Shown: positions 15,566 to 60,902 of the stretch, piece after piece
Numbering within the stretch: position 1 is the stretch's first letter
Layout of the letters: each line of letters starts with the position of its first letter
NCBI RefSeq assembly: GCF_035084215.1
Contig: NC_090331.1
Span: forward strand, 30,814,001-30,878,000
Reading direction: 5' to 3'
DNA from: Heptranchias perlo
Lineage: Eukaryota
DNA: 64,000 nt
Notes under the pieces: generated by a model
What the model was told of the DNA's origin: nothing
The model's database searches: none
What the model saw: only the letters and a program-made list of their open reading frames with translations
Program-made: the position numbers and the translations under genes

Positions 15566-15952
<387 letters not shown>

Positions 15953-20050: not shown

Positions 20051-20184
20051 TAGTACATCAATCTGACAATTCTCTCAGATCATTGGTCAGGCTGCAATTA
20101 GAACAGTGTGTCAGTTTTGGGCACCTTACTTTAGGAAGGATGTGTATTCCATGGAAAGTGTGCTAAGATATTCACTATGTTACT

Positions 20185-21659: not shown

Positions 21660-21741
21660 GAAGCAGCTGAAAAAGAGACCGGTTCACTGTGAGAAATGTA
21701 GCACTCTCAGACAGTGCTCCGGCCCCGTATTCAACAGCTCA
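21660..21741 (-). ncRNA. MIR128-1: pre-miR-128-1 hairpin (3p mature 21672-21692, 5p 21705-21727)
   Basis: Minus strand contains the exact miR-128-3p TCACAGTGAACCGGTCTCTTT, paired with CGGGGCCGGAGCACTGTCTGAGA; TGAGCTGTTG...CAGCTGCTTC flanks are of the 128-1 type; intronic and sense to R3HDM1. Confidence 0.98.
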
Positions 21742-22116
21742 CAGAAATGCTGATTATCAATTCAAATTCAACATCCTTCAGACATATGCCAGGACGGAGA
21801 TTGACAGAAGGCTGAGAAATTCACAGAAAGAAATCCCATGTCTGTTCATTCGGCACCTCCTATTTTCACAGCATGGTGCCAGAACACAGTTTATGTATGA
21901 ATCTGGATTATCTTTTTAATAAAATAATATTTAAAATGTGAGCAACATCATAATTCTTTAACTTTCTCATCCCCGAGTAGACATGTATCCAAGCACTTCA
22001 AAAAGATTAATTAAAAGAAAACCAAAAAGCTTAGGAATTAGCAGATACAAATAAACTATTTTTACAATTATTATAAACCATTACATGAAGGAAAAAGTGC
22101 ACAAACAGAAACCAAC

Positions 22117-22240
22117 CTGTTTGCTGGGTAGTTTGTGACAATGGCTGGTTGTGCTGAGTGTTGTAATGGATAGGGGCTATAGGCCGATACTGCTGACTGG
22201 AATGGGGGTACTGACCTGGAGCACAGTAACAACTAGACAG
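22117..22240 (-). CDS. R3HDM1: R3HDM1 coding exon (LSSCYCAPGQYPHSSQQYRP...QQT)
   Basis: 124 nt; CYCAPG motif; directly upstream of the miR-128 hairpin. Confidence 0.95.
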
Positions 22241-24289: not shown

Positions 24290-25150
24290 TAGGACCGTCT
24301 TGCCTTTACAAATGCAAGTTGTTGTTGTTGAGACCGGGAGCCAGTGTGGGTCAGCAGGGATGGGGGGGATGGGGGTGATGGGAAAGTGGGACTAATTCTG
24401 GGACAGGTTATATGCAGCGAAATTTTGGACAGACCAGGGTTTATGGAAAATGGAGACCAGCAGGAAGAGAGTTAAAGTTGTTGAGTCATATATTGGGCTG
24501 TCAGCAGCAGAGGAGTAGAGGTAGGGGTGGAGGTGGAAGTAAGCAATCTTGTTGTCGGATAGAATATGCGGTTTAAAGTTCAGCTCAGTGTGCAACAGGA
24601 TGCCAAGATTACAAGTGGTTAGGTTCTTCCCGAGAGAGTGGCCAGAGAGTGGGGTGCAATCAGTAGCAAAGGAATGGGGTTTGAGATAGGGCCAAAACGA
24701 CTTTGAACTTCCCAATGTTGAGCTGGAACAAGTGACTCAATCCAAGCCTTGATGTTGGAAATGTAGTCTGGCAATGGAGGGTCATTTGATGGGTTGAGAT
24801 AAGTGATTGAAGGATAGAGGATGGCTTGTTCATCGCATGTACTGCACATTGTGGAAAGGTCGAGGAAAACGAAGGGAGCTAATGCATCAGTGTCACAAAA
24901 AAATGTCGTCTGTACCTTTGCCTAGGGCTGCTTTGGTGCTGTGTAGAGATGGCTAGTTGGACTGGAGCGCTTCGAACAAGCAGTTATGGGAGAGACGGGC
25001 ATGAAGCTGGGAGATGACGACATGTTTAAGGACTTTAAAAAAGGAAAGAGAGCTTGGAGATGGACGGTAACTGGAGAGGACAGATGCGGCAAGAGTTTTT
25101 TTTGGGGGGCAATGACAGTGGTTTTAAAGGGGAGAGGGAGAGGGACAGTG
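24290..25150 (-). mobile_element. Decayed, internally deleted L2 fragment
   Basis: NLGILLHTELNFKPHIL...AYFHL remnants. Confidence 0.7.
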
Positions 25151-25302
25151 CCTGAAGTTTGCATACAGAGTTGACTTTCACATGCTTAACAACACTTGTT
25201 GCAACATGTATTAGGCATCTGGAAATCCAAGTGTTTGTGTACTCAGCAGGGTTAATTTTGAGAGATAGTCACCTGTAAGTTTTTAAACAGCTGTATTATG
25301 TT

Positions 25303-25423
25303 CACCTGACAAAGGAGAAAGCCTCCGAAAGCTTGTGATTTTCAAATAAAACTGCTGGACTATAACCTGGTGTTGTAAGATTCCTTACATTTGTCAACCC
25401 CAGTCCATCACCGGCATCTCCAC
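25303..25423 (+). mobile_element. Short solo Penelope pLTR 3' end with degenerate hammerhead core (CTGACAA)
   Basis: Homologous to 50160-50249 and 39787-39915; 8-bp flanking repeat attatgtt at 25295-25302 and 25424-25431. Confidence 0.88.
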
Positions 25424-27647
25424 ATTATGTTGTCATGTCATCCAATATTTGGGGGGGGGGGGGGGGGTCCAATGCTATTGTTGGGTTTAGTAGGGTGTTG
25501 GCTGTAACAGCCACTAAAACTTTCCTTGCATATGCTACAACAGTTGCCATGTTAACAGCAATTCTTCTGATAGCTGGTCGTTCTAGTTCATACAAGGTCT
25601 TACTCTGCAGTGTTTCCAATGCTGTTCTATGAAGAGCTACCTTGGGTAGACAAGAAGCTGCCACCCAGAGGAAATGTCCTAACCATAATCTCAATATATT
25701 CTGTTCCTCTTCCTTCACTCCATCCTGTATTTTTAGCATTTCATTCCTGGCAACATCTGTCAATGAACTGAGGATTCCCTGAAGCAAATAAAGCTCAATA
25801 CTTGAACTTCTTCAAGGTTCATGCTTCACGGCAACGGTTACAATGAGACCTCTTAACAGAGGCTAATATTGTTATATGTCCATATCCAACTGATTGACAG
25901 GATCAAAATAGCAACAGTTGTCCAGACATTACATTATGAAGTGTTATCACTTGTCAATTCCTCTCCAATGTATTGAACTGGGTTACTTGTTCTATCCAGG
26001 TTTCATTATCCAGATGCTAGAGTCGTAACACTAAATGGAATCTGGTTGGGAAGTTCTTTACAAAACGGTTGTCTGTTTTACTTCAATACAAGAGTAGCAT
26101 TTCTACCGCTCCCCCCCAACCTGAACCCCCCAAAATATGGATCCTTTAGTTGTCCAATCTTCTATTTTCAACCCTGTTGAAATAACCTCAGTTACTTCAC
26201 TGAGTGTCACCTGGACCTGCAGCAACTATTTTGAGATTTCCTATTCTATCCAAGATTACATCTCTATCAATTTTAATATTTATAAAGTTATTTGATACAG
26301 GGTGTCCCACAGTTAGAACATGAGCATCATCCACAGGAGTATCGACTCATGCTATTCATCAAACAGCATTTAAAAACAAAACTACACATACTGTAATCAT
26401 TAAGGATCTAAAAGCACTGGTTTGAGCCTTGTAAGAATTGTAGAAAGATCTACAATTTTGTATACAAGCAAGAATTTGATATTTAATTTTTGTTCTGGGG
26501 ACAAGTGGAGTTTCTTTAAGGTCAAACTGGCTCCAAGATGACCTGCTGTTTGGAACCAAGTCAATCCCCTGTGGCAGATTCTTTTACACAAAATCTTAAC
26601 CTGGCAAGTCTCCAATATTCCATCGCACTGGTAATGATTCACCAGACAAACCAGTTCATTGATGGTATGTAGGGCAGCAAGGGGCATGTTTTTCCCCCCA
26701 CTCATCTCCAGATAACCCTGTAAATTCATGATCTTAACTGTTAGGGCGGTCCTACGTAGACAAGTGTCAAACCAGGTTGCTGTGCTGCTAAACTTCACAG
26801 TTTCAGCCAGTTAAACTCCAATGCTACTCTTATGAACACTAAGCAGTGGCCAACTTGCGCTCAAGTTCTCTAAGCCTAAATGAGTGGCATGCATTCCCAC
26901 ATAGAGAGTGAGCACTTTATATAAGGCAAACAGAAACTGTACTGTATGAATTTCTCAGTAGTTTGGAGACTCTTATGCATGGTGATTGGTTTCCATTCAT
27001 GTCAGGCATATGACACACCTAAGAAAATAGCTATTATTGGCAGGCTTAAATACAGATTGTATTAAAGTGCTGATCTCCATGTCCAGTATCATATCAGTAA
27101 ATAGCTAGAGAGATCGAACTTTATTTCAGCTATAAATAGTAAAACTCTTCAGTGTAATCACTTTGTTACGCCAATGGTGAAATTAGTGACTAAAAAAATC
27201 AGAACTACATTAGCTTTTAAAACAAATTAGGACCTTAAAGTCTAAAGCCACCTTCTCTTAAAATATTAAGATACAAATTCCATTTGTGATGTTTTAATGC
27301 AATGTTTATTTTACTTATTGAAAAGAGAACAATTCTGCATCTCTATCTAGAAATCTAGCAAGAGCTGACTTAAAAACTTCAAAGGAGGTGACAACCCAAA
27401 ATGGTGCAGAAAATAGGTCTCCGACACAAAAACAAGTAGTTATGCGAATTTAGTATCTTAAGCTGTAGATATACCCAACATTCCTTCACTTCTATTGGAG
27501 GGGAAAAAAACGAAGTGCATGAAAGCCTAAATGGGAAATACAATGTTGAAGGCACAAAATTTGTGATACATTTGTAGGGGTGTCTGGGGGCATGTTTCGC
27601 CTGGAATTTAAAAATAACTTTTACCCCTTCATTGCTGACATTAGCAG

Positions 27648-28123
27648 GTTTCAAAGGAACAGGAGTAGGCCATTTTGCCACTCGAGCCTGTTCCGCCATT
27701 CAGTGAGATCATGGCTGATCTGTGACCTAACTCCATATACCCACTTTAGTCCCATATCCCTTAATACCTTTGGTTAACAAAAATCTATCAATCTCAGATT
27801 TAAAATTATCAATTGAGCTAGAATCAACTGCTGTTTGAGGAAGAGTGTTCCAAACTTCTACCACCCTTTGCGTATAGAAGTGTTTCCTAACTTCACTCCT
27901 GAAAGTCCTGCCTCTAATTTTTAGGCTATGTCCCCTGGTCCTAGACTCCCGAACCAGTGGAAATAGTTTCTCTCTATCTACCTCATCAGTTCCCTATAAA
28001 ATCATGAAAACTTCGATCAAATCATCCCTTAATCTTCTAAATTCCAGGGAATACAACCCTAGTTTGTGTACTCTCTCCTCGTAATTTAACCCTTGGAGTC
28101 CGGGTATCAGTCCAGTAAATCTA
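27648..28123 (-). mobile_element. CR1 3' end
   Basis: Reverse complement of the sequence type at 33420-33860 (ggaacaggagtaggccatt). Confidence 0.85.
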
Positions 28124-28725
28124 CAAGCATCAGATAGAAGCTGTTGCAAAGACATGGACAGCACTTATACGGCAACTGTATCTAAGAGACGCTTGAATAA
28201 ATACTGTTTTCCTTATCCTGAAGTTCATGCTGCCCTTAAGGACCAACCATTATTATAGTTGAGTATGCAAATTTAATCCTAATTAAGCAGATAATAAACA
28301 AGAAACAACAATGCATAGTAAGGAATTTTGCCTAAAAAAAAATCAAGTCCATTCTCAGCAGGTGCATAAGGGAACAACAGAAGGAAGATGTGATGAATGT
28401 CAGTAATAAAATCTGGGATGAAAGGAATGGAATTTCTTTCTCTGATATCTAAGGCTTCAAAGTGAAATGAGTTTTGGGCAGTCTAAATCTTGTACCTGGT
28501 GTACACAAGGTTACTGCACAAAACTGCTCAGAATTTGACGTACAATTAGTAATCACACACAAAGACAGGGGTATGACAACTGGTGTACCAAGTGGAAATG
28601 TTCTATGGGTGCATCATGAAGTTGGTATTGAGGAACATTACTGAGGTGATGTAGAATCTTCATCCTGTCCTCTATAATTGACCTAGGAGTGCTTAATATT
28701 GACATTAAATTTCATTCTCTAACAT

Positions 28726-42609: not shown

Positions 42610-42663
42610 CTAAATATTTGTCGCCTTTGTTGTGTGCTATTAGCAGTTTCTTCTTCTTGAATT
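42610..42663 (-). CDS. R3HDM1: R3HDM1 short exon (IQEEETANSTQQRRQIFR)
   Basis: 54 nt, phase 2-2; STQQRRQIFR motif. Confidence 0.93.
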
Positions 42664-42752
42664 CTATTGGTGTTAATGGGACATTTCAGAATTTAGTACT
42701 AATTACCATGAATAACTAATCAATTAAGTTGTCTTTTCAAATTAGCACTTAC

Positions 42753-42790
42753 CTTTTATCTGCAAAGTAATTGTCCTGGGAGAATGATAA
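42753..42790 (-). CDS. R3HDM1: R3HDM1 short exon (LSFSQDNYFADK)
   Basis: 38 nt, cag acceptor and gtaagt donor; needed for phase 0 to 2 continuity; absent from the ORF track. Confidence 0.9.
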
Positions 42791-44885
42791 CTGAAAGCAA
42801 AACACAAATTTTTAATTACACAGACAGAATTAATTATCAAGAAATTAACTGAATAATGAACATCCGTTATTTTTTACCCACCATAATTTCAAAACAAACA
42901 TTATTCTCTGGTACCAAAGATGTATAAAAATGAAGTACTGTATGCTATTCACTATTTTCCACATGTAAAAGACCCTGAAAGGTGATGCACACTTTTTAAT
43001 TTAAAAAAGGCTCTTTTATAGAACAAGCTGACATTATGAGTAAATCATGTACTTTCTATTTTGCTGGTCTGATTCCACCTTCAAACAAATTTGAAGTGAT
43101 TCGGTGGCTTAAACAAAATCAACAACCAATACCACAACAGCACTGAGTCATCCAAGCTGTTGACATAAAAAATTGATTTTTTATTTTGTTATAAATTATC
43201 ATGGTATGATACGTACAATTTTATAATAGCAATTATAGTGCTTGGAAGCCAACTTTTGATGGGTATTCCTTTAAACAGTTCAAGAATTCTTGGCACACAA
43301 GAAAAATTACCTGGGTAAACATCCAGCACAGTGGTATTCAATACGAGAACACATTTTGAGTGCATCTCAATTCTTTCAACACTATTTTTGAAGAGTTTAA
43401 ATCTTCATATAGAAGCTATATATGAAGAATGCAAATTTTTAAAACACTGCAAAAGTAGCATTATTGAATGATCACAAATCTGTACTAAAATCATACTTTT
43501 GCTATTAACTTGTTGGCTTCCGACCTCTCTCAGATGAACAAACTGCTTGTAATACACTGCACTAAGCTCAAAGCAGAAAAACAAGTGAAGATCTGCAGAT
43601 GCCTAAGCAGGGTATCTTGGAAAAATGATCCAGCTTTTAACAACATATACATTTTAAAGGTTTTATTACCTTTCTTAAAAAAACACAACTGTTCCATTCA
43701 TTTACATTCTTGTTCTGTGAAAATCCTACAATAAGGGTCATGAACAGCAAAGATGCTCCTAATGAGTATCTGAAGACCATAAATAACCAGCATTGGGGAC
43801 AATATTATGTTCTCACTATTATAAAAGTCTCTTCTTTTTTTTTTATTTAGACTGTTTTCCTGAAGAGGTTTAGTGCTCTTAAAAAGTGTTTTCATGCAAG
43901 CGGTTATCAGTGGACCAACAATGCTCCTTTTCCACTTCCAGTCATAATTTAGACCTCTGATCGTTTGGTCTGCATCAGGAGAGATAGATTTATTTACAAG
44001 AATTTGTCAAAGAACATATTTGATTTGCTGTAGCTAAATGAATGCAGTCAAATGCATGAAGCTAAAGAGTATAATGGCATGCAGTATGGTATTTTTTGAA
44101 CTCTGGCACCAGCCAATTGGATCCCAATGGCCTTTTTCAGTCCTGTGCATTCCTAGGTGTACAACAAAAAAGTGTGATGGGGGGAAAATTCATCATTAAA
44201 AGAGTTTCAAGTGCTTTAGTCCTATATGCCATCTATCAGAAGCATTATTTACTTTCTTGTACCTCATATTCAAACACTCTGCCATAGGACAACTGCTTTC
44301 TATCATTTACCAGATCTTGATAACTATCTTTCCTATGCCACGCTGGCAAAACATATGTACTACACAACACCTGAATTATGGCTCTGACTCAAAAATACCC
44401 ACCCAAAATTTAACAAGCAGTGCAATGCTCTGCCAACACCCTTACAAGGGCATCTGAACATGATCACTAAACTGCTCTGCAGAGAATTTTGGATTTATGG
44501 CCATCTAAAACAGTCATAAACTAAACTATGATACGCTGAAAAACAAATCGGCTGCAGATAAAATATACCATATCAAAATTCTGCAGGCTGCTCTTTTATG
44601 TACTATTTGTCCTCACAGAAAGAAATTCCAATTTTCTTACAAAAGAGTTTCATCAAAGCAGGTGACAAACAACTATTTGTATTTACAAAAGTTCATGGAA
44701 TAGCATCCCATTTGATACAGCCAGACTCCACAAAGATTCCTCTATTGAGACTACCATCCAACTTTCAGTTTACTAATGTATTGTATACTCTAAAATCTCC
44801 ACAACCAAATCAGTCAAGTCCAATATCTTCTATATTTTCAGCTACTCATACACAGCCAGTAACGTCTCTTTGCACATCCAGTTTA

Positions 44886-45155
<270 letters not shown>

Positions 45156-46451
45156 TTAATTTGTCTGTATTAGCAATGCTACACTCTCCTTTAAAAAAAA
45201 GTGCTTTCTAAGAGCTTTCTAGAATGTAATTTTCATTCTCCCAAGGCAGTTCATGCTTTTGTCACAACTATCTTGACTTAATTCCAGATGGTTTCCTGAT
45301 TTTGCCTTACATTTCCACTCAGCTGTTGTAACCGATTCATTCAGAGCAAATAACCTGTTTTAATACATAATTCTCTTCCACTTCGTTACTGTGAAATATT
45401 CCAGTAACACCTGTGAACAATCTCTTGGTTAGAGGAAATTATTACAATTTCTGAGTGACTATTTGTGGGTTGAACTGAAAGCAAACTGTGCAACCAAGTT
45501 TTAATCTGATTAACCAACTGGTTAGGATTCACTTAAAAAATCCTCATATGAGAAACATGCACTAGAATGACTTGGGCAGTCTTAGCCATTGAAAAGCCAG
45601 TTGTGCTGTTAATCAGTCATGTTATATATTCATTTAAGAGGAATTCCCCTTGAAAAACTGGTGAATGCGTTTCATATACAAATATCTGTCACCACATTAA
45701 ATGCAACTTTTTCTAATGCAAAGTGCAATATCCTTCAAATATCTTTGCTACTCTTATCTTTATCAGAGTGTCAAATAATGCTTGCTGCAGCGGCCATATA
45801 GGACTTGATGCACAGGACATGTGGTACATATATACACAAGTGTGATGAGCAATGTAAAATTAGTAATTAGCTATCTGGATAAAAATGCAATGTAAATTCT
45901 TGGCTACAATTATTCCATTAAACAAATATAATGGATGTGGGCAAAAGGTTTGAAGTTTACAAACTTCCGTTCAATTGAATTACACTATGAAAGTCGATCC
46001 CAGGACTCGTTGAATATCATCCATTGAATACGTGACTGGAGGCTACTTGAACTGAGCTATGTTCCAGAGCAATGGTCTGAGTCTAACTAGATCCCTCTAA
46101 CTTGTTAGTAAAACCCCAACCTCCACAGAAGCGAGTACCCATATAAATTGCACAAAAATATAAAGTACTGTTATTTACTGACACCATTTTATAAACAGAA
46201 TTTTGAAGGAAAAATGACAGTTATGATCAAATCATTTGTTGACTTCAAAACATTCCTAGATTCCTGCTGCACGGCAACTCTATGTGTACTTATCAGGTAT
46301 TCTCTCAATGAAACTATATAGTACTACAATACGGAGTACTCAAACTCAGGATACAAAAAGTACATTCCAGTTTTGTGAAATTAATAATCTGCTCCAGGGA
46401 AATTTACAATTTTATGTAATTTAGATAGCCATAAAAACAGCCTTTGTTTTA

Positions 46452-46667
<216 letters not shown>

Positions 46668-47662
46668 TCAAAGATAAGTGATATCAATGCCAAAGAATTT
46701 AATGCTTTCCCACTTTTGGCACGCGGCATCAACATTCTGCACAAACTTTAGAAGATTATCTCCCAGTACACCACAGTAAATTTTCCATTTCTCGCATCAA
46801 TCATCCTGGTGGCGTTTGTGAGCAAAAATGCCAATTTGCTGTCAAATCTCACACTGTGGAACTAGATTGAATGTCTAAATTTATTTAATGTGGGGCTCTT
46901 AGAGGAAGGAGGCTTTCACTATCATTAGGGCTGGATTCAATCCTAGGTTCTGTAAAGATAGTAGGTTAGCCCACTGGATCATCCAAAACTCCATTCTGAA
47001 ATCAATTTGCAACAGCCTGCTAGCAACATTTTTAGCATTTAATGGAGGCAAGTATTTCGACTGCACAGGTTCAACTGACATTCACATTTAGAGTCTGTTT
47101 AGAGTTTCTTTAATTCCTGTTACTAGAAGGGAAGGAAAACAGCCCATAAAAACAGTTGTTATCCTGATTTTAATTTTTAAACTAATTTGTGCCACACTTA
47201 TTTTCAATGTAGCAATGACCTCTGTACTTCACTCCATTGAAACAGCGGAAGTTGCACTATGGCAAGGCTTTAAGTACAGCTTCAATATTTTATAGAATTT
47301 TTGAAATTCCTTTTTTTAAAGGTTGGGGAGGGTCTCGAAATTATTCTACATTTACCTTTAGGAATAAAGGACAATTTTTGGTCATATAACTGAATAAAGA
47401 AATCTTACACAGTTAACAGAACTTTAAAACCCGATTTCACACCAAATATACTAAGCCTTACAAGTCCATAACTGCACAAGTGAGATTTGCAACATCTTGA
47501 TGTGTAATGAAAATGTTGACAAACTATGAGGACTATTTTCACAAACAAAGATGAAATGTTTTGCATATTGTTTTTGTACAAGAGTAGTGGAGACTGTGCT
47601 TGCAAAATTTTCAATATTAACATTTACTACGTGTTACACAGTTACTGCCATCAAATAATTTG

Positions 47663-50249
47663 ATGGCAGTAACATGAAAACTAAGAGCAGGAAGCTTGAG
47701 AAACTCGGCATCACCACCAGCATCAACCAAGCTTCCCCTGGTACCACGGTTGCAACCACAGGGAAGTCTATCGTCAATTTGTCCGACCACACCCTTCAAC
47801 CAGACGAAATCAAAGTTCTCAGCCGAGGGCTCAATTTCTGCCCCACTACCAAAATGGACCCCGTTAGTCTCGCGGCGGACACAGAGGAATTCATCAGGAG
47901 AATGAGGCTCCGGGAATTCTACCACAAACCCCAAGATTTCAACAGCGAACCCAATGAGACAATCAATGATCCGGAACAGCAGACAGAGGGATCCGCGGTA
48001 CAGCAACCGAAGAGGAAACAGTCAAACTGGACTCCTCCGGAGGGTCGCTGCCCTCAGCTTGACATGTATGCCCAAGCTGTCAGGAAATGCGTCAATGCCA
48101 GATTCATCAGGCACACTCAGAAGACAGTCCAGAATGTCACCCGAGCACAACGCAATGCTCTCAAGACCAACCGCAACATCGTCATCAAACCAGCGGACAA
48201 AGGAGGAGCCATCGTCATACAGAACAGAACGGACTATTGCAAAGAAGCATACCGACAACTGGACAACCAGGAACACTACAGACGGTTACCCGCAGATCCG
48301 ACCAAAGAACACACCCACCAGCTCAACAAACTGATCAAGACCTTCGATCCAGACCTTCAAAACATCCTACGCACTCTCATCCCACGTACTCCCCGCGTGG
48401 GAGACTTCTACTGCCTCCCAAAGATACACAAAGCCAACACACCCGGATGTCCTATCGTATCAGGCAACGGAACCCTGTGTGAGAACCTCTGTGGATACAT
48501 CGAGGGCATCCTGAAACCCATCGTACAGGGAACCCCCAGCTTCTGTCGTGACACTACAGACTTCCTACAAAAACTCAGCACCCACGACAGCATCAATACT
48601 CAACACCAACAACAGCCAATCTCCAGACGCCTTCCTACAACTCATCCGCTTCATCCTGGATCACAATGTCTTCACCTTCGATAACCAGTTCTTTACCCAA
48701 ACACACGGAACAGCCATGGGGACCAAATTTGCACCCCAATATGCCAACATTTTCATGCACAAGTTCGAGCAGGACTTCTTCACTGCACAGGACCTCCAAC
48801 CAACGCTATACACCAGATACATCGACGACATTTTCTTTCTATGGACCCACGGCGAAGAATCACTGGAGAGACTACACGATAACATCAACAAGTTCCATCC
48901 CACCATCAAGTTCACCATGGACTACTCCTCAGAATCGGTTTCTTTCTTGGACACACGAATCTCCATCAAAGACGGGAACCTCAGCACCTCACTCTACCGC
49001 AAGCCCACGGACAACCTCACGATGCTCCACTTTTCCAGCTTCCACCCTAACCACGTCAAAGAGGCCATCCCCTATGGACAGGCCCTGCGAATACACAGGG
49101 TCTGCTCAGACGAGGAGGAACGGGATGGACACCTACAGACTCTGAAAGACGCCCTGGTAAGAACAGGATATGACGCTCGACTCATCGATCGACAGTTCCG
49201 ACGGGCCACAGCGAAAAATCGCATAGACCTCCTCAGAAGACTAACACGGGACGCAACCAACAGAGTACCCTTAGTCGTCCAGTACTTCCCCGGAGCGGAG
49301 AAACTACGCCGTGTTCTCCGCAGCCTTCAACATGTCATCGATGACGACGAACACCTCGCTATGGCCATCCCCACACCTCCACTACTCGCCTTCAAACAGC
49401 CACCCAACCTCAAACAGACCATCGTTCGCAGCAAATTATCCAGCTTTCAGGAGAACAGCGTCCACGACACCACACAACCCTGCCACGGTAACCTCTGCAA
49501 GACATGCCAGATCATCGACACAGATACCACCATCACATGAGAGGACACCACCCACCAGGTGCATGGTTCATACTCCTGTGACTCGGCCAACGTTGTCTAC
49601 CTCATACGCTGCAGGAAAGGATGCCCCGGAGCATGGTACATTGGCGAGACCATGCAGACACTGCGACAACGGATGAACGGACACCGCGCAACAATCGCCA
49701 GACAGGAGGGTTCCCTCCCAGTCGGGGAACACTTCAGCAGTCAGGGACATTCGGCCACCGATCTTCGGGTAAGTGTTCTCCTAGGCGGCCTTCGAGACAC
49801 ACGACAACGCAAAATCGTCAAGGAAATTGATAGCCAAGTTCCGCACCCATGAGGACGGCCTCAACCGGGATCTTGGGTTCATGTCACGCTACACGTTACC
49901 CCACCAGCGAACAAAAGCTATCTGTTTTTAATATAATGGGTCATTTGCTGGCTTTCTCTGCCTTCCGGATGTTTCTGCCTCTCTCTCTCTCTGTTTTTTT
50001 TTCCTGTTTGTTTTTTTTGTTGAATGTGTATTCGGGGGTTCTGTAGGTGACACCTCCCTGTCTGAACACGGTGATTGCCTTGACAACGGGCAGTCTGTAA
50101 ACACCATGTATTGTTCTATGATGTATAAATGCGTAGGTTTCAAGGAGCTCCTGACAATTACCTGAGGAAGGAGGAAGCCTCCGAAAGCTTGTAGATTTCA
50201 AATAAAAATTGTTGGACTATAACTTGGTGTTGTAAAATTGTTTACAATT
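47663..50249 (+). mobile_element. Penelope-like retroelement (probably Neptune type), 5'-truncated and defective; RT + GIY-YIG + pLTR
   Basis: IKPADKG, LPKIHK, GTAMG and RYIDD RT motifs; Cys linker PCHGNLCKTC; VVYLIRC...WYIGET endonuclease; 13-bp TSD atcaaataatttg at 47650-47662 and 50250-50262. Confidence 0.95.
50156..50197 (+). ncRNA. Minimal hammerhead ribozyme motif in the Penelope pLTR
   Basis: CTGAGGA-A-GGAG(gaagc)CTCC-GAAA-GCTT with short stem I; palindromic AAGCTT in place of stem III. Confidence 0.75.
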
Positions 50250-50279
50250 ATCAAATAATTTGTCACCTTCCAAATCCTT

Positions 50280-51325
50280 GCTCATCTTTTCCGCAACTCC
50301 GTTTGAATCTCTCCAATCAGGTTTCTGCCCTGACACAACACAAACAGCCCAACCAAAATCACCAACATCATCCCTCCTCGACCTCTCTGCAGCCCGACTT
50401 GGTCGACCGCACCAATTTCCTCCACGCTTCTCCTCCATTGCCCAGCTTAGGGGGAATTGCCCTCGCTTGGCTTCAGTCTTACATATCTGGTCATAGCCAG
50501 AGCAACTTCCTGCTCACAAACTGTTAGCTCTGGAGTCCCTGTGGGATCTATCCTTGGGCCCATTCTCATCGTTAGTATGTGCTGCCCCTTAATGACATCA
50601 TCCAAAGACATGGGGTAAACTTCCACATGTATGGTGACAATTCCCAGTGCCATCTCTCGACCTCTCTCCTGCCTCTGTTATCAGACTGCTTCCTGTCTTG
50701 TATGAACCTCAATTTCCTCCAATGAAACATTGGGAGGACCAAAGCCATAGTTTTCAGTCCCAGTCACATCACCCTCCCTGGCCACTTTCTCATGCTGAAC
50801 CAGACTGTTTGGAACCTTGGCACCCTAGTTGAGCCTGAGTTCAGCTTCTGATCCCATAATCCTTTCCATCACAAAGAATAATTATTTCCACCTCCATACA
50901 TCCCACTTACCCATCGCCCCTGTCCTTGCTGACTTACAATGGCTCCCGGTCCCGCAGTACCTCAAATTTAAAATCCCTTCCTCGCTCTGCAACCTCCACC
51001 AGCCCTACAACCCCAACCCCCTGCACTCTTTGTTCCTCTGATTCAAGTCTCATGCATCCCCCTCTCCATTTGCCCCACTATTGGTGACCATGCCTTCAGC
51101 CGCCTAAGTCCCATGCTCTGGAATTCTCTCCCGAAACCCATCCACCTTTCGAACTCCTTTATGGCCTTCCTTAAAACTCACCTCCTTGACCAAGCTTTTG
51201 GTTATCCTTCCTAACATGTCCTTCTTTGGTTTGGTGTCCTTTATATATTTTTTTGATTTTGCCTCTGTGAAGTGCCTTGCAACATTTTTCTATGTTCAAG
51301 GCCCTATACAAATGCATGTTGTTGC
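50280..51325 (+). mobile_element. L2 fragment adjoining the Penelope 3' end
   Basis: FESLQSGF, GVPVGSILGP and LADLQWLPV remnants; L2 tail. Confidence 0.85.
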
Positions 51326-51456
51326 AGTAGTGCTAGTAAGTCGAAGTGGTTTCTTTTGCCCCCCTCCCGAATCCAATACTGAAGCAAACTTTTAAAAGCA
51401 CAATAAAATGATTAACTTAATTATAAATAAAAGCATTTCAGAAGTTAAATCACTTA

Positions 51457-51654
<198 letters not shown>

Positions 51655-51683
51655 TTAGCCTATGCATCAATATCAGCTCTTAC

Positions 51684-51743
51684 TTGTTATTACTGATAAA
51701 ATCCAGAATTTCTTGTTCTAACTTCAGCAACATCATTCTATCC
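51684..51743 (-). CDS. R3HDM1: R3HDM1 coding exon, start of R3H domain (DRMMLLKLEQEILDFISNN)
   Basis: 60 nt, phase 2-2, gtaag donor. Confidence 0.97.
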
Positions 51744-53476
51744 CTGGAGAACAAAAAAAAATTTTCAGTAGCATTCATTTGCCAAATAGGTTAGTTCAAA
51801 TGCTTGAAACAAAAAGCAACTGGAAATTATGCACTTCTCAATTAAATTCCCTGCAAGCACAAGACAATATTTCTATTAATTATGAACCTACCTGCATACT
51901 ACACAGTGACAAATATGTGATTTTTCCGTCCAGTGTGGACATCCAGTTGCTTAAACCACACTGGACCTATGTGTTAGTCTATTTATGTAACAGTTGACTG
52001 ATGAGCATTAAATTTCCAAAAAAAAAATATCAGCATCTAAATGAACAAAAGTTAAATCATTTGAAGGCTTTACATTTATCTGCAGGCTCATTTGCATGCA
52101 GAACAAAGTTGCATGCAAAGGAAGCATTTGGACTTGGAACTACTGTCCTTTTGGGGGAGATAATTGGGGATTCTGGATAGTGAGGTGGCTCCTAGATGTA
52201 TTTTCTGGCACTGGAAGTTCAGAACAAAGTTAACTCTCTGTGGCAGACTCAGCATCTGATACCCAAGGTAGGTTCACAGTACTCCAGGGCACTGCTGATG
52301 ACTGGCCAGCTTCGCTCACAAATGGAGGGGTAAGATCCTTTTATTTTGTGCTGGGATTCTTCACACTTGGCTACAGATAATCCAGCAAACCAGTGTCCTA
52401 ATGAGTACAGTAGTTTTGTCTGCATAATGGTGATATTGCTGGACACAGTAGTAAAAGCTACCACTGAGCTAAGCTGACACCAATCATAGGACCAACTACC
52501 CTTAATGTTTCCTCATTTGATCACTGTTCAGAGTTACTGCTGGAAATTGAACCTACAGACGACATAGAGGGCAAACAGGATTGCACATAACTGCAATGGT
52601 CTTTGGGGCAGTGGTTAAAGTGCCTCTGACACTCATTGTTAAAGCTCAAATTAAGTATGAAGCTCCGTGTCGCCCCCTTCAGTAAGTAAGATGAGAAAAA
52701 GGAAAGTTTGGGGAGAAATAAATAAATTCATCATGCACAATGTTGTATATACTTGTGTACAAGAGAAATTTATTTTGCTATTTAGTGTTCAAAGTACAAT
52801 GTTTGTCCTAAGGTGCAATCACGCAAGTTTAGTATCATTGCACAGTGAATTTGGATATGCTAGATTTGAAATATATAAATCAGATTCAAAGGCCCAAAAG
52901 GACACTAAAGCAAAGCAGAGCAAGACTTTCTCCTCTAGGGCACCTTATTCTTTGTTTTACTGTTAGATTGCTACTGTGATGGTGTAAATGCACCTTTACT
53001 TAAAGGTCATACCTTCACTCAGGTTTCTCTCACAGCACAGAATTTCTGTGGAGAATGGTGACCACTGCTCCAAAGATGGTAGCAGTAGCACCACGAGTGC
53101 ATTCTTATCAACTGTTGCACAGTGATATTTTAATGGCAATTCTATCTCCCAATTTCAGTCCCAACTACAGCTGCAGGAGCCTGCGTTGAAGTCAGGAGGA
53201 ATAGCTGCCATTTAAATATCACAGCAGTGCAAGAGCTGAGCAACAACTGACAGTCACAGTTAATAAGGACGTGCTGGTTTGAATGAAAAGGAATACATAA
53301 AATATAATTGTGTCTGCCAGCTAACATGAAGGTTAGAATTTTGGGGGATTAAAGCTTCGCTAAATTTCAGCAAGAGTAAGTCAACATTCAACCATTTCCA
53401 TTGGTGGTTGGATTAGAGGAGTTCTATTGTATGTATAACAGTAGCATCTCTCATAGAAATTACAGTACAGGATGAC

Positions 53477-53735
53477 TTGACAATTCCAATGCTCCAGGCC
53501 GACCTCCCATCTTCCACGCTCCATAAACTTGAGCTCATCCAAAATTCTGCATCCCATATCTTAACTCACACCATGTCCCGTTCACCCATTACCCCTCTGC
53601 TCACTGACCTACATTGGCTCTCGGTCCGGCAACGCTTCGATTTTAAAATACTCATCCTTGTTTCCAAATCCCTCCATGGCCTCACCCCTCCCTATCTCTG
53701 TAACCACCTCCAGCCCTACAACCCTCCGAGATCTC
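53477..53735 (+). mobile_element. L2 internal fragment
   Basis: LHKLELIQNSA...PITPLLTDLHWL. Confidence 0.85.
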
Positions 53736-54036
53736 TGTACACGTTATTGTGTTTATCAACTGTGTGGCACCAACGTGTGTTTTTTAAAAAAAAAAACTGG
53801 CTGGTGGTGGTTCAGAATTCCTAGGAATAGTTATGGCAACCATGGTTATAGTGAGCAGCTGCTGATAGGAGGGTGAATGCACAGCTATTCGACCGTCAAA
53901 CTGCCACTCGGGTAAGTAATGATGGTTGGTTTGATCTCAGGTACAAAGAATAAATTCCAAATGTGTACAATAACTATGTACCATAAACAATGCATGACTG
54001 AAAATATTGCATCTTCTAAATATAATCAAAAACTCA

Positions 54037-54162
<126 letters not shown>

Positions 54163-54226
54163 TTACAAGTCACTCAGCAAGCATCCAAAATCTGAAAGTA
54201 TTTTAGTGAAGAAATGCAGTGTAAAC

Positions 54227-54350
54227 CTCTTGATAACATTTTTTTATGCATTTTATCTGGTTTGTCTATGCATTCTTCCTTTTCAGCTTCATCTTTTGTG
54301 GGCTGTTCTTCTTTATCAAGTGTTTGTATTAACTGTAGTTGAATTTTATC
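54227..54350 (-). CDS. R3HDM1: R3HDM1 coding exon (DKIQLQL...KKMLSR)
   Basis: 124 nt, AG/GT bounded, phase 0 to 1; resembles EKIQIQL...RKMLSR of R3HDM1. Confidence 0.95.
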
Positions 54351-55169
54351 CTGTGTAAACACAAGACAAATCGTAGTCATAATATTATTCATTCAACACA
54401 TGGATTAACATATTTTGAGGTGTGGAGTTTAACAAAAATGGTAATCTCATTTCACATATTTTCCCCCTCAAAATACTTCAACAATCTTCCCTAACTGGCT
54501 TCACAGTGATTTGGCAAATGCCCTGGATAGTATGCTACACCAATCCACTGAGCAGACTACTTGAAAAAGACACCGTTTACTACAGAATTTTGACTTTCAC
54601 AGTTTCATATTATTGTAACATAAATGGAACAGTATCAACATAATATCAAATAAGTCAGGTGATATAACCTTGAGGATATGCTCTTTTTCAAAGAAACAAT
54701 TTATAACAGCAGTACAAAGAAGAACAGGCAATCTTTGTTGGAAAGCAAGGGTAGCAGAGGAAATATGAAATTGTGAAGTTACAGGTACTCATTTTAGTCC
54801 GTAAAATCTCCTTTCAAAAATTAGATTGAACGCAAAGAATTCCCAATCATCAGAATTTGCTCTCATATGCATGCATGATATAATGCTATTTCAATGTTCC
54901 ACTGTACAATACAACTCATGTTGCAAGGAGATCAGAGTCCCTATACTTACATGCATATTTATGAAACACAACTGAACCAGGAAATTCTGGTAACTTGATG
55001 TCGGCTGACACCGAACCAGAGAATAACCCAAAGATTGGACTGTGGTTTACGACTACTGCTGAAGTAAGTTATCTGCCACCAGAAAATACCAATGTCTTCT
55101 CCTTGAACATGTAAGCTGATGTGGAACATGGCTCGCTCCACTGGTGCACTAACCTTTCTCTTACCAATT

Positions 55170-56030
55170 TTATCTCCCAACTTTATCCCATCTGGACCGA
55201 CTGACTTTACTACTTTGAGTGCTGCCAATCTTTTAAATACCTCCTCTTCATCTATTTTAATCCTATCCAATATTGCTACTACCTCCTCCTTTACTGCTAC
55301 AATGGCAGCATCCTCTTCTCTAGTGAAGACGGATGTGAAGTATTCACTTAGTGCCTCAGCCATGCCCTCTGCCTCCACAAGACGATCTTTTTTGTCCCTA
55401 ATTGGTCCCATGCTTCCATTGACTACCCTTTTACTATTTATATGTTTATAAAAGACTTTTGGGTTCCCTTTCATGTTAGCCACTAATCTATTCTCATACT
55501 CTCTCTTTGCCCCTCTTATTCCCTTTTTAGATCTCCTCTGTACTGTGTATTCAGCCTGGTTCTCTACTGTATTATGAACCTTACATTTGTCATAAGCCTA
55601 CTTTTTCTGTTTCATTTTAATCTCTATATCTTTAGTCATCCAGGGAGCTCCAGCTTTGGATACCCTTCCTTTCCCCCTCATAGGGATATGTCTACTCTGT
55701 ACCCGAACCAACCAATAAGCCTCCCATTGTTCAATTACTGTTTTGCCTACCAATTTTTGATTCCAATCCACTTGGGCAAGATCCCTTTTTAACTCACTGA
55801 AATTTGCCCTCCTCCAGTTAAGCATTTTCACATTCTTTGGGCTGGAAACACACTGTTCCAGAAAGTTCGTTTGAACACATTTCAGGAATTCCTCCTCCTC
55901 TTTGCCCTTTACACGGTCACTGTCACTGTCCCAGTCTATATTTGGATAACTGAAGTCCTCCATTATCATTACTCTATAGGACTTGCATCTTTCTGTAATT
56001 TGCTCCTCTATCTCCTTCCCACTATTTGGT
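55170..56030 (-). mobile_element. CR1 ORF2 fragment (EN to RT linker), internally deleted
   Basis: DFSYPNIDW, NPKVFY, YFTSVFTRE and GPDGI remnants. Confidence 0.88.
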
Positions 56031-56704
56031 TATAAATATAAACTCGAGCAAACCCAGTAGCCTTCAAACTTCCTATCCACAAGCTCAAAGACTGCAAAGG
56101 GGGATCTGAACTTTTTGGTTGTGAACAGAAAGCTGATCAATTGAAAACTGGCAGAGTCAAAAATAAAATTATCTGCTGCCAATAGCAGATGAGAAAGCCA
56201 AAGATGTAAATACTGCTTTCCTATATTTCAATGCACTTCTGGAAGGATATAAGAAAATGCTCGCCATTTGAGGGCAAACATCCACTCAGGTCTCTCCCAA
56301 CCATTTTTGTCTTGCTCCATTTGTCAACATTACTGTGGTTAGTACTCCTGTCAACTTTCCATTCCGTTCTACCTAAGCTATAAAAATTCAATTCTACACA
56401 TATTTCCTCCTCCCTACATCCCCAATCTGCTGAAATCAAAACTCATTGCAGAATCTTCCACTTTAACTCATTCTTCCCCAAGATAACAGCTTGCATTTCT
56501 ATCCACCCTTATAATGTAAAAAAAAGTGTCAAGATGCTTTAGAGCGGGGAAAAAAACATTCAAAACTCTGGAACTCCTTACCTCTTTCAGTTTCCTTTAT
56601 TATACAATTTTCAGGCTTTTAAAACCCAACCAACAAATCAACTAATCATGATTTGTTGATTTACCCTATCTTCTCTATTATTCTTTTCAACCGTACGAGT
56701 GTCA

Positions 56705-57570
56705 TAATAAGAACATAAGAAATAGGAGCAGGAGTAGGCTATATGGTCCCTCGAGCCTGCTCCCCCATTCAATAAGATCATGGCTGATCTTCGACCTCAA
56801 CTCCACTTTCCCGCCCGATCCCCATATCCCTGGGTTCCAAAAATCTATCAATCTCAGCCATGAATATACTCAACGACTGAGCATCCAGAGGTATCTGGGG
56901 TAGAGAATTCCAAAGATTCACAACCCTGAGTGAAGAAATTCCTCCTCATCTCAGTCCTAAATGGCCGACCTCTTATCCTGAGATTACGCTCCCTAGTTCT
57001 GGACTCTTCAGCCAGGGGAAACATCCTCTCAGCATCTACCCTGTCAAGCCCTCTTAGAATCTTAGAAGTTTCTATGAGATCACCTCTCATTCTTCCAAAC
57101 TCCAGAGAGTATAGGCCCATTCTACTCAATCTCTCCTCATAAGACAACCCTCTCATCCCAGGAATTAATCTAGTGAACAGTCATTGCACCGCCTCTAAGG
57201 CAAGTATATCCCTCCTTAAGTAAGAGACCAAAAATGCACATAGTACTCCAGGTGTGGTCTCACCAAAGCCCTGTACAATTGCAGCAAGATTTCCTTACTC
57301 TTATACTCTAACCCCCTTGCAATGAAGGCCAACATACCATTTGCCTTCCAATTGCTTGCTGTACCTGCATGTTAACTTTCTGCATTTCATGTATAAGGAC
57401 ACCCAAATCCATCTGAACACCAACATTGAATAGTTTCTCACAATTTAAAAAATATTATGTTTTTCTATTTTTCCCACCAAAGTGAATAACCTCACATTTC
57501 TCCACATTATACTCCATCTTCCACCTTCTTGCCAACTCACTTAACCTGTTGATGTCCCTTTGCAGACTCT
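56705..57570 (-). mobile_element. CR1 3' end
   Basis: LSYEERLSRMGLYSLE...RNFFTQ; same subfamily tail as 1-283. Confidence 0.9.
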
Positions 57571-58101
57571 GGGATCTATCAGAGGGATTGAAAAATACCC
57601 TGGAACCTAATCAGTGGGATGGATAAACACGGTGGGATCCATCAGAGGAATGGATAAAAATTATAGGTCTTTGCTATTCACATTAGTACATTTCTTAAAA
57701 GCAACATCCCAAGTTATTTTCTAATTTCGAAGATCAAACAAATGAGTAAGAATTGTCAATTTCATAGGTAACTAGGATAGCCGACTTGAGAAATGAAAGC
57801 AAGTACATTGTTTTCAGACAGGGATAATTTCAAAGACTGGAGTGAAGACACATTGCAAGGAACATGGCTCACAGCTGGCCTATGACACGCATAGGCCCAA
57901 GAGTATCCTCTCTTTTTTGGAGAGGCAAAAGAGATTATCCAGTTCTCAAAAGACAAAAGCTCACAGCCAAATGATGAAGGCCACTAAGTTTCAGTAATCT
58001 GATGACTATCTTTTCTGATCTCTGTCTCTGCTGTTACATAATTTTTTTTAAGATATGCAAACTGAAAGTTGATTTTAATTACTAACTTTAAAAAAAATCA
58101 T

Positions 58102-60902
58102 TGAATGGTTCAGAGCACAGAAGGAGGCCATTTGGCCTGTCGAGTCCGTGCCCGTTCTCTGCAAGAGCAATCCAGCTAGTCCCACTCCCCGACCCTATCC
58201 CCATAGCCCTGCAAACTTTTTCCCTTCAAATACTTATCTAATTCTCTTTTGAAAGCCACAACTGAATCAGCCTACACCACCCCCTCAGGCAGTGCATTCC
58301 AGATCACAACCACTCGCTGTGTAAAGAGTTTTTTTCTCACGTCCCCTTTGGTTCTTTTGCTAATCACCTTAAATCTATGTCCTCTGGTTCTTGACCCCTC
58401 TGCCAATGGGAACAGTTTCTCTCGATCTACTCTGTCCAGACCCTTCATGATTTTGAATACCTCTATCAAATCTTCTCTCAACTTTTTCTGCTCTAAGAAC
58501 AACCCCAATCTTCTCCAGTCTATCCACGTAACTGAAGTCCCACATCCCTGGAACCATTCTAGTAAATCTCTTCTGCACTCTACGGCCTTCACATCTTTCC
58601 TAAAGTACGGTGCCCAGAACTGCACACAATACTCCAGTTGTGGCCAAACCAGTCTTTTATAAAAGGTTCATCATTACCTCCTTGCTTTTGTACTCTATGC
58701 CTCTATTTATAAAGCCCAGGATCCCGTATGCTTTCTCAACCTGCACTGCCACCTTCAATGATTTGTGTACATATACCCCCAGATCTCCCTGTTCCTGCAC
58801 TTCTTTAGTTTATATTGCCTCTTCTCGTTTTCCTACCAAAACGTATCACTTCACACTTTTCTGCATTGAATTACTTCTGCCACATGTCCGCCCATTCCGC
58901 CAGCCTGTCTGTGTCCTGTTGAAGTCTAATTCTATCCTCACTGTTCACTACCCTTCCAAGTTTTATGTCATCTGCAAATTTTGAAATTGTGCCCCACACA
59001 TATCATTAATATATATCAAAAAAAGCAATGGTCCTAGTACCGACCTCTGAGGAACACCTCTGTATACCTCCCTCCAGTCTGAAAAACAGCCGTTCACCAC
59101 TACTCTCTGTTTCCTATTACTTAGCCAATTTTGCATCCATGCTGCCACTGCCCACTTTATTCCATGGGCTTCAACTTTGATGACAAACCTATTACGCGGC
59201 ACTTTATCAAACACCTTTTGGAAGTCCATATACACCACATCAACCACATTGACCTCATCAACCCCCTCTGTTACCTCATCAAAAAAAAATCAATCAAGTT
59301 GGTTGTACACAATTTGCCTTTAACAAATCCGTGCTGGCTTTCCTTCATTAACCCACACTTGTCCAAGTGACTATTAATTTTGTCCTGGATTATTGTTTCT
59401 AAAAGTTTCCCCACCACCGAGGTTAAACCGACTGGCCTGTAGTTGCTGGGTTTTTCCTACACCCCTTTTTGAACAAGGGTGTAACATTTGCAATTCTCCA
59501 GTCCTCTGGCACCTCCCCCGTATCTAAGGATGATTGGAAGATTATGGCCAGTACTTCTGCAATTTCCAACCCTGCTTTCCCCAGCAACCTAGGATGCATC
59601 CCATCCGGACCGGGTGACTTATCTTTAAGTACAGCTAGATTTTCCAGTGCCTCCTCTTTTTCAATTTTTAGCCCATCCAGTATCTCAACTACCACTTCAC
59701 TTACTGTGTTTTTGGCAACATCATCTTCCTTGGTAAAGACAGATGCAAAGTACTCATTTAAAACCTCAGTCATGCCCGCCATGCATAGATCTCCTTTTTG
59801 GACCCTAATTGGTCCCACCCCTCCTCTTACTACCCATTTACTGTTTACATGCCTATAGAAGACTTTTGGATTCCCTTTTATGTTTGCTGCCACTCTATTC
59901 TCATACTCTCTCTTTGCCCCTCTTATTTCCTTTTCCGCCTCCCCTCTGAACTGTATATAATTCAGCCAGGTTCTCACTTGTATTAGCAACCTGACATCTG
60001 TCGTACGCCCCTTTTTTCTGTTTCATCTTACTCTCTACCTCTTGTAAACAATTTTACAACACCAAGTTATAGTCCAACAATTTTATTTGAAAATCACAAG
60101 CTTTCGGAGGCTTCCTCCTTCCTCAGGTGAATGTGGAAATGAAATCCTCGAACCTTTCGCATTTATAAATCACTGAACAATACCTGGTGATTACAGATAG
60201 TCTTTCCAACTGCCCGTTGCCAAGGCAATCAAAGTGTTTAGACAGAGAGGTGTTACCTACAGGGCCACCGAATATACAAACAACCAAAAAAACTCTTAAC
60301 CTCTTGTGTCATCCAGGGAACTCTGTTTTCAGTTGCCCTACCTTTCTCCCTTGTGGGAACGTATCCAGACTGTACCCGAACCATCTCCTCTTTAAAGGCC
60401 GCCCACTGTTCATTTACAGTTTTACCTGCCCATCTTTGATTCCAATTTACCTGGGCCAGATCCATTCTCATCCCATTGAAATTGGCCTTCCTCCAATTGA
60501 GTATTTTTACTTTAGAGTGATCCTTGTCCTTTTCCATAGCTAATCTAAACCATATGATACTATCATTGCTGTTCCCTAAATGTTCCCCCACTGACACTTG
60601 CTCCACTTGGCCCACCTCATTTCCCAGAACCAGATTCAGCAATGCCTCCTTCCTCGTTGGGCTGGAAACATACTGGTCAAGAAATTTCTCCTGAACACAC
60701 TTCAAAGATTCCTCCTCCTCTTTGTCCCTCACACTATTACTATCCCAGTTGATATTAGGATAGTTGAAGTTCCCCATTATCACTAGTCTATGGTTCTTGC
60801 AAATCTCTAATTTCCCTGCAAATTTGCTCCTCTATATCCTTCCCAATAGTTGGTGGCCTATAGACTACCCCCAGTAGTGTAATGGCACCTCTATTGTTTC
60901 TT
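58102..60902 (-). mobile_element. 5'-truncated CR1 LINE, about 2.5 kb plus a nested pLTR
   Basis: Colinear EN (GNFNYPNINW), WRIANVTPLFKKG, YMDFQKVFDKVP, GVPQRSVLGP and WNALP remnants; possible TSD aaaatcat at 58094-58101 and 60903-60910. Confidence 0.92.
60046..60298 (-). mobile_element. Penelope pLTR fragment with hammerhead motif (60092-60132), nested in a CR1
   Basis: Reverse complement aligns with about 50000-50245; 9-bp TSD acctcttgt at 60037-60045 and 60299-60307. Confidence 0.9.

What the first reader, a model, noticed from the sequence alone, without database searches (positions are those of the whole stretch)
25295..60307. Autonomous-type Penelope plus three tiny ribozyme-bearing derivatives in one gene; two break at the ribozyme 5' edge
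Seen: the same pLTR/hammerhead module occurs at 25303-25423, 39787-40004 (twice), 50156-50249 and 60046-60298, each insertion with its own 8-13 bp flanking repeat. The 25.3-kb copy starts at stem I (ttcac-CTGA) and the palindrome folds back at the same spot. The 3' ends fall into two classes: near ...GTTTACA, or about 40 nt further at ...CTCCACAT. Stem II (GGAG/CTCC) and GAAAGCTTG are invariant while the loop varies (gaagc, aaagc, aaaat). Known: PLE pLTRs often have a short 3' extension. Inference: the structure is under selection, and the ribozyme may set the boundary of a roughly 125-nt minimal mobile RNA, resembling a retrozyme/SINE partner of the element.
Basis: partly seen in the sequence, partly recalled or inferred. 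Interest (0 to 1): 0.7.

Follow-up and report, generated by a model that had tools for sequence, protein, structure and literature searches.

The report
Penelope stubs mark transcription start
These four inserts are real but dead pieces of a very common Penelope-type jumping gene, and the shared left edge of its shortest copies follows a TATA-like box rather than the ribozyme, so it likely marks where the element's RNA begins, not a ribozyme cut or a separate mini-element.

Summary
In detail: five pLTR/hammerhead arms in four insertions, with 8, 12, 13 and 9 bp target duplications, in introns of one R3H/SUZ gene. The family has at least 99,490 arms genome-wide, and the local element is broken. 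In 365 sampled arms, 158 of 290 that reach the ribozyme's 5' side end 19 nt before to 3 nt after its first core base. This edge is about 35-45 nt upstream of the predicted cut, so cleavage cannot make it. TATA-to-ribozyme spacing varies from 36 to 47 nt among subfamilies, and the edge moves with the TATA box (mode +30/31, an Inr-like site). Genome-wide counts agree: 37% versus 76% of arms survive the same interval in two subfamilies. The 130-nt unit runs from that site to the ORF's ATG. Best reading (inferred): run-off cDNAs of uncut mRNA, started internally at the known 'tail' sites, often two joined head to head. It is not a SINE or retrozyme lineage. No RNA 5' ends or cleavage were measured. 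The architecture is published; the start-site run-off was not found in eight searches, but this scan noted it before on other DNA.

The parts
25295..25302 (.). Left target duplication of insertion A (8 bp; right copy 25424-25431)
25303..25423 (+). Insertion A: single tailed arm of 121 bp. Starts 3-5 nt before hammerhead C3 (25306), about TATA+34 in subfamily coordinates; predicted cut after 25334; G8 replaced by A at 25311; ends just before the ORF start codon position
39775..39786 (.). Left target duplication of insertion B (12 bp; right copy 40005-40016)
39787..39915 (-). Insertion B, tailed arm; 5' end at TATA+36 (C3-5); hammerhead core 39910-39882
39914..40004 (+). Insertion B, tail-less arm; 5' end at TATA+31 (C3-10); hammerhead core 39924-39952; joined head to head with the other arm (94-nt arms, 98% complementary)
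47650..47662 (.). Left target duplication of insertion C (13 bp; right copy 50250-50262)
47663..50249 (+). Insertion C: 5'-truncated, broken EN+ Penelope-like element (RT, linker CxxxxCxxC, GIY-YIG type endonuclease; residues 116-902 of the intact ORF with a gap, a stop and frame changes), 3' UTR, tail-less pLTR end
50124..50133 (+). TATA-like box of the pLTR in C; predicted start site near 50153-50154; hammerhead core 50162-50190
   Evidence: start site inferred
60037..60045 (.). Left target duplication of insertion D (9 bp; right copy 60299-60307)
60046..60298 (-). Insertion D: 253-bp tail-less pLTR piece that keeps the TATA-like box (starts 60167) and an Inr-like site near 60140; hammerhead core 60126-60098; its 5' end is an ordinary truncation far upstream
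15563..54392 (-). Recognised exons of the host gene (R3H exon 51457-51654, SUZ exon 44886-45155, intronic mir-128 at 21660-21740); likely R3HDM1 (name recalled)

Best explanation
The short copies are pieces of an endonuclease-bearing Penelope-like element whose 5' ends follow a TATA-like box at about +30, and they are likely run-off cDNAs of the element's uncut mRNA 5' UTR. Shown: a TATA-like box, an Inr-like site about 30 nt downstream, a minimal type I hammerhead 6-17 nt after that, two 3'-end sites about 37 nt apart, then the ATG, 129-134 nt from the predicted start. Inferred: the protein binds the 5' UTR/ORF junction, nicks both target strands about 12-13 bp apart, starts reverse transcription inside the RNA at either 3'-end site (as shown in vitro for the anole element), copies through the intact ribozyme and falls off the RNA's 5' end. 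One cDNA gives a monomer like A; two cDNAs, one per target strand, joined through a few bases of microhomology, give a head-to-head palindrome like B with the tail on one arm. Longer copies (C, D) would come from the downstream pLTR of tandem transcripts or from template jumps. The stubs lose the promoter and are predicted dead ends.
For: Hazard of a 5' end per nt: 0.068 at TATA+29..32 (58 of 213 at risk), 0.019 at +19..27 and +34..46, 0.007 at +1..18, 0.002 further upstream. Modal end by spacing class, longest arm per event: C3-17 for 46-47 nt, C3-16/17 for 43-44, C3-12/13 for 41-42, C3-10 for 39-40; best 3-nt peak 39 of 107 in TATA coordinates against 25 in ribozyme coordinates, permutation p=2e-4. 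Genome-wide exact counts: spacing-46 subfamily 12,913 / 9,144 / 3,396 arms reach C3-9 / -15 / -24; spacing-39/40 subfamily 15,841 / 10,093 / 7,654 reach C3-8 / -15 / -24; last step 37% against 76%. Non-inverted monomers also end there. A G precedes the predicted +1 base in 49 of 100 and 55 of 100 listed arms where the family base is C (counted by hand; about 30% expected), as a copied cap would give. 128 of 133 inverted partners of tailed arms are tail-less. 88 of 92 short palindromes share a flank word of 8 nt or more, 64 of them 12-13 nt. PMC11167929: RT starts internally at two sites that bound the tail, both strands are cut and extended, uncut RNA is the main substrate, and RNA downstream of the start sites is required.
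Against: No RNA 5' end was measured; only assembled contigs were available. TATA and Inr are motif readings, not promoter assays, and D. virilis Penelope uses a TATA-less internal promoter (PMC2377424). The non-circular comparison of two subfamilies in my sample alone is borderline (p=0.06). The peak is broad: 72 arms end at +34..46 and 25 at +19..27; the spacing-39/40 subfamily has a second cluster at a self-complementary stretch near C3-15..-20. The spacing-46 probe was validated on only 3 long copies. The G signal is confounded in palindromes, because the partner arm is G-rich and its A bases follow G or C; in non-inverted copies it is 10 of 19 (p=0.03). A weak second cluster of ends lies at C3+29..36 (19 of 348, window chosen afterwards).
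Confidence: 0.78

Rival explanations
1. The folded ribozyme (or protein bound to it) sets the boundary: RT falls off as it leaves stem I, or a nuclease trims the RNA back to the structure.
For: Many ends lie within 5 nt of C3 (12 at C3-5, 11 at C3-2); both short window copies end 3-10 nt from it. Trimming could explain the trail of ends downstream of the main peak.
Against: The main peak moves from C3-10 to C3-17 with TATA spacing. RT meets the 3' side of the structure first, so a block should give ends near C3+35, where only a weak cluster lies.
Confidence: 0.08
2. A non-autonomous SINE- or retrozyme-like RNA of about 125 nt, released by self-cleavage, propagates as its own family.
For: Retrozymes derive from pLTRs (bioRxiv 10.64898/2026.07.22.740005). 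Solo pLTRs that keep the TATA box, like D, could make a short RNA that is copied in trans. The unit is very abundant (143 of 239 events have all arms ending at or after TATA+19).
Against: A cleaved unit would begin at C3+29; 1 of 365 arms begins exactly there. Only 7 of 365 arms have a same-strand module within 400 nt. Short arms are as close to long copies as to each other (tie in 88 of 122; 52 identical to a long copy over about 85 nt) and occur in every subfamily. They lack the TATA box.
Confidence: 0.06
3. Palindromes arise by snap-back of one cDNA (or self-priming on an antisense template, as proposed in PMC3846280), and the boundary is a preferred fold-back sequence rather than an RNA end.
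For: The two arms are usually near-identical (median 1 difference against 8 between events; 28 of 79 identical). Some fold-backs centre on self-complementary words.
Against: Non-inverted monomers end at the same site. Either arm can be the longer one (tailed 35, tail-less 55, equal 15). Four short palindromes differ between arms at non-CpG subfamily sites (L161, L172, L178, L258; 72 pairs parsed), which points to two templates at least sometimes.
Confidence: 0.08

Closest known systems
EN+ Penelope-like elements, Neptune/Nematis type (PMC8557442 passages; PMC3846280 passages)
   Same: RT with DKG and YIDD, linker CxxxxCxxC, C-terminal GIY-YIG type domain with two internal cysteines; pLTR; inverted 5'-truncated copy; optional 30-40 bp tail on one side; 8-13 bp target duplications; TATA plus Inr-like motifs in the pLTR were noted in rotifer PLEs.
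   Different: Those papers describe 5' truncation as variable; no pile-up at the start site was found in the passages read. Neptune versus Nematis was not resolved by a tree.
PAc/Poseidon of Anolis carolinensis in vitro (PMC11167929, main text read)
   Same: Two internal RT start sites bounding the tail; both strands primed; hammerhead upstream of the start sites; cleavage not needed for insertion.
   Different: In PAc the ORF begins inside the ribozyme; here the ATG follows the tail, so the copied unit is the whole predicted 5' UTR. The paper maps where RT starts, not where it stops in the genome.
Minimal PLE hammerheads (PMC4209133, results and discussion read)
   Same: Type I core, extra base before stem II, no real stem III, palindromic 15.2-16.2 positions, thousands of solo motifs, pairs on opposite strands 100-700 bp apart.
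   Different: That paper proposes cleavage and circular templates; the copies here carry the ribozyme uncut.
Non-LTR retrozymes (PMC7229834 passages; bioRxiv 10.64898/2026.07.22.740005, parts 1-3 of 5)
   Same: Non-coding, pLTR-related, type I hammerhead, target duplications.
   Different: Retrozymes are head-to-tail tandems of 150-450 bp units with cut-to-cut RNAs; these are monomers and head-to-head pairs bounded by a predicted start site and the RT start sites.
Retroviral minus-strand strong-stop DNA (recalled, no call)
   Same: Works like it: internal priming near the RNA 5' end and run-off at the cap, with a repeat at the RNA's other end as a possible landing site.
   Different: Primed by cut target DNA, not tRNA; integrated directly; strand transfer was not shown here.

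Membership tests
EN+ Penelope-like element | Single ORF with PLE-type RT (DKG motif) and C-terminal GIY-YIG endonuclease | tested here: met
   Intact 902-aa ORFs at L075, L086, L163, L165; RVT_1 E=3e-10; GIY-YIG E=4e-4, just under Pfam's cut-off; window copy 92-95% identical but broken
EN+ Penelope-like element | Partial tandem pLTR, inverted 5' copy, optional 30-40 bp tail, target duplication | tested here: met
Neptune/Nematis clades | CX2-5CxxC linker motif between RT and EN | tested here: met
   Motif at residue 753; definition from PMC8557442
Neptune clade | RT phylogeny | not tested
Minimal type I hammerhead | Core CUGANGA, stem II, GAAA, palindromic stem III positions, NUH, stem I | tested here: met
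   221 of 237 arms parsed; four stem I and four stem II pairs kept in 218-221 of 221; double changes are rare (C-G for U-A in 5 arms of stem I, G-C for A-U in 3 of stem II). No Rfam hammerhead hit
Minimal type I hammerhead | Self-cleavage as dimer or with protein help | not testable with these tools
   Needs a bench assay; genomic ends at the predicted cut are at most a weak cluster
Non-LTR retrozyme | Head-to-tail tandem units, each with a hammerhead | tested here: not met
   7 of 365 arms have a same-strand module within 400 nt; none in the window
Non-LTR retrozyme | Unit ends set by the cleavage site; circular RNA | tested here: inconclusive
   Ends are not at the cut; circular RNA could not be tested
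SINE-like non-autonomous family | Own lineage and own internal promoter | tested here: not met
   No short-only lineage by nearest neighbour; TATA-like box lies outside the unit; an internal promoter was not assayed

The most novel reading that the evidence does not exclude
Penelope-like elements make a strong-stop cDNA by default: RT starts near the capped 5' end of the uncut mRNA, and two RNAs, paired through the hammerhead's palindromic stem III like a retroviral dimer link, are copied onto the two cut target strands at once. A jump of this cDNA to the 3' pLTR would rebuild pLTR tandems, so the ribozyme would serve mainly to pair RNAs or to control translation, not to cut out the template.
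Probability: 0.17. Interest if true: 0.8.

Novelty: new member of a known kind. Interest (0 to 1): 0.48.

Why it matters
How Penelope-like elements form tandem and inverted pLTRs, and what their hammerhead does, are stated open questions (PMC2377424, PMC8557442, PMC11167929). If the stubs are run-off copies, about 40% of this family's arms record both the RT start and the RNA start at near-base resolution, place the ribozyme in the first 50 nt of the mRNA, and show that the copied RNA was uncut. Subfamilies with different promoter spacing give a ready test. In practice such stubs should be annotated as PLE by-products, not SINEs, MITEs or miRNA hairpins. A rough extrapolation (84 of 239 sampled events, sample enriched for tailed arms) suggests on the order of 20,000 short hairpins in this genome.

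Tried and rejected
Rfam: no hammerhead family hit; MIR7807 and mir-553 matches on B are below their cut-offs and reflect the palindrome. RNA evidence: no RNA holder listed on record; four guessed-RNA contig sets were laid and cannot show starts. No solved structure matched the ORF. The first 5'-end maps were discarded: some reference copies held inverted arms, which scored 30 short arms as long; one search supersedes them. In one search helices 3 and 4 were entered out of register and are ignored; the hairpin at the first 3'-end site was counted instead (A-U 104, G-C 91 at one pair, probably one inherited double change). Deletion of a tandem 5-mer as the source of the extra G was rejected (0 of 12 G cases). 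Chimeras between promoter type and downstream type, as a sign of strand transfer, were looked for in 102 long arms: no clear case, which is weak evidence. Co-folding two ribozyme copies did not give the double-hammerhead fold as the lowest-energy state. Ten arms scored at C3+13 are mostly fold-backs at an internal palindrome and were not read as a peak.
Full report
Observation. They lie in a minus-strand gene with R3H and SUZ exons and an intronic mir-128, likely R3HDM1 (name recalled; the exon that would put D inside the gene is a peptide at extended position 71.6-71.8 kb). The long copy C is 92-95% identical to intact 902-aa ORFs found elsewhere in the genome but is truncated and broken. The ORF has RT, a CxxxxCxxC linker and a GIY-YIG type domain, which by PMC8557442 (passages) points to the Neptune/Nematis type; no tree was built. 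A 22-nt word of the module has 99,490 exact matches in the 3.25-Gb genome, so five arms here against about two expected is unremarkable for a selected window.

Sample. Arms were found by a 22-nt anchor downstream of the ribozyme (up to 3 mismatches) in loci L001-L260 and the window: 512 raw, 423 distinct. I dropped arms seen only in L001-L030 or the window, which were chosen for covering the whole module, and 2 duplicates, leaving 365. All come from contig C1. 102 arms came from anchor-only lists and the rest from tail-bearing lists, so tailed arms are enriched; a few segmental duplicates and double pairings remain. Each arm was aligned leftwards to 82 real long copies cut 70 nt above the TATA-like box (which replaces).

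The boundary is real and is not the cut. Of 290 arms reaching C3+3, 158 end between there and C3-19; 95 of 365 run well past the promoter. A type I hammerhead cuts after CUU at C3+28, so a cut template would begin at C3+29 (established hammerhead numbering; PMC4209133 read). Ends at +27..32 are 10 of 339 (0.0049 per nt against 0.0052 just upstream). Over +29..36 there is a weak cluster, 19 of 348 against 18 in 22 flanking nt (p=0.001, window chosen afterwards); only one arm starts exactly at +29, several are fold-backs in an AT-rich self-complementary run, and none of 137 extra, biased arms fell there. Cleaved templates or RT stalls at stem I are at most a small class.

The boundary follows a promoter-like motif. 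Long copies carry a TATA-like box 36-47 nt before C3, depending on subfamily. Ends peak at TATA+29..32 (58 of 213 at risk; 0.068 per nt) with ten-fold lower hazard at +1..18. The mode sits at C3-17, -16/17, -12/13 and -10 for spacings of 46-47, 43-44, 41-42 and 39-40; it is diffuse (C3-10 to -2) for 36-38. The best 3-nt peak holds 39 of 107 ends in TATA coordinates and 25 in ribozyme coordinates (permutation p=2e-4; subfamily calls partly depend on arm length). A non-circular version on two subfamilies gave p=0.06, so I counted genome-wide: 9,144 to 3,396 arms (37%) survive from C3-15 to C3-24 in the spacing-46 subfamily, and 10,093 to 7,654 (76%) in the spacing-39/40 subfamily. The probes matched 3 of 3 and 26 of 30 long copies. 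In most subfamilies the peak base is the A of a pyrimidine-A-pyrimidine-rich Inr-like word (consensus recalled). The unit from there to the ATG is 129-134 nt, and the tail ends at the ATG.

Possible cap trace. Where the family base before +1 is C, arms with another base there show G in 49 of 100 and 55 of 100 listed cases (hand counts; 1,291 and 101 matches in all). Context shows true junctions and not a deletion variant. In palindromes the partner's composition and microhomology can also give G; non-inverted copies give 10 of 19 (p=0.03). Suggestive only.

Palindromes. 133 of 199 tailed arms have an inverted partner within 4.5 kb, and 128 of these partners lack the tail. 84 of 239 events are short palindromes like B. 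Junctions mostly overlap by 0-5 nt. Arms are usually near-identical (47 of 72 pairs show no polymorphic difference against 195 of 1,828 random pairs), but four short palindromes differ at non-CpG subfamily sites. This fits two cDNAs, usually from the same source and sometimes from two RNAs; snap-back is not excluded for all events.

Mechanism. PMC11167929 (main text read, supplements not) shows for the anole element that RT starts inside the RNA at two sites bounding the tail, that both strands are cut and extended, that RNA downstream of the start sites is required, and that uncut RNA is the main substrate. Applied here (inference), the complete binding site exists where the pLTR is followed by the ORF, that is near the mRNA's 5' end, so the default product is a 130-nt run-off. 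Long copies need tandem sources, which exist (L086, L165), or template jumps, for which I found no sign.

Not a SINE or retrozyme. Tandems are rare (7 of 365), short arms are not a separate lineage, and they lack the TATA-like box. Stem pairing is kept across subfamilies, but copy A has lost G8, so selection concerns the sources.

Prior work. The architecture is published (PMC3846280, PMC8557442, PMC2377424: passages; PMC4209133: results and discussion; bioRxiv 10.64898/2026.07.22.740005: parts 1-3 of 5; PMC7229834 and PMC13725137: passages). Eight searches found no report of a start-site pile-up; older subscription papers and all supplements were not seen. My reading was noted, before the look-up showed that this scan had reached the same idea on other DNA, including this genome; those notes are not independent support.

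Verdict. A new member of a known kind, with dead local copies; the mechanistic inference is testable and moderately interesting (0.48).

Noticed in passing
window:47641-47673: The 5' junction of element C carries about 10 nt that are an inverted copy of the upstream flank, centred on the self-complementary target duplication; it looks like snap-back synthesis from the target end.
   Followed up: partly
window:21660-21740 (-): mir-128 precursor above Rfam's cut-off, in an intron of the host gene, 3.6 kb from insertion A.
   Followed up: no
window:25380-25395 and all arms: The first 3'-end class lies just after a 6-bp hairpin with an A-U / G-C double change between the two main lineages (104 against 91 arms); a candidate RT-binding element. 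A longer stem is predicted to close around it with the tail.
   Followed up: partly
L163, L165, L086, L075: Intact 902-aa ORFs in inverted, triple-tandem and tandem arrangements, 99% alike; the family looks recently active.
   Followed up: partly
window:39822-40012: B would form a 94-bp near-perfect hairpin in the host pre-mRNA; it gives spurious sub-threshold miRNA matches and could be an editing or small-RNA substrate.
   Followed up: no
L093-L097 (G000:C1, about 3.93-4.02 Mb): Dense cluster of short arms inserted in a satellite-like repeat, partly duplicated with their flanks.
   Followed up: no
window:33146-33739, 35037-35771, 54959-56029, 58272-60831: Several decayed CR1/L2-like LINE fragments (labels recalled); D is inserted in one of them.
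   Followed up: no
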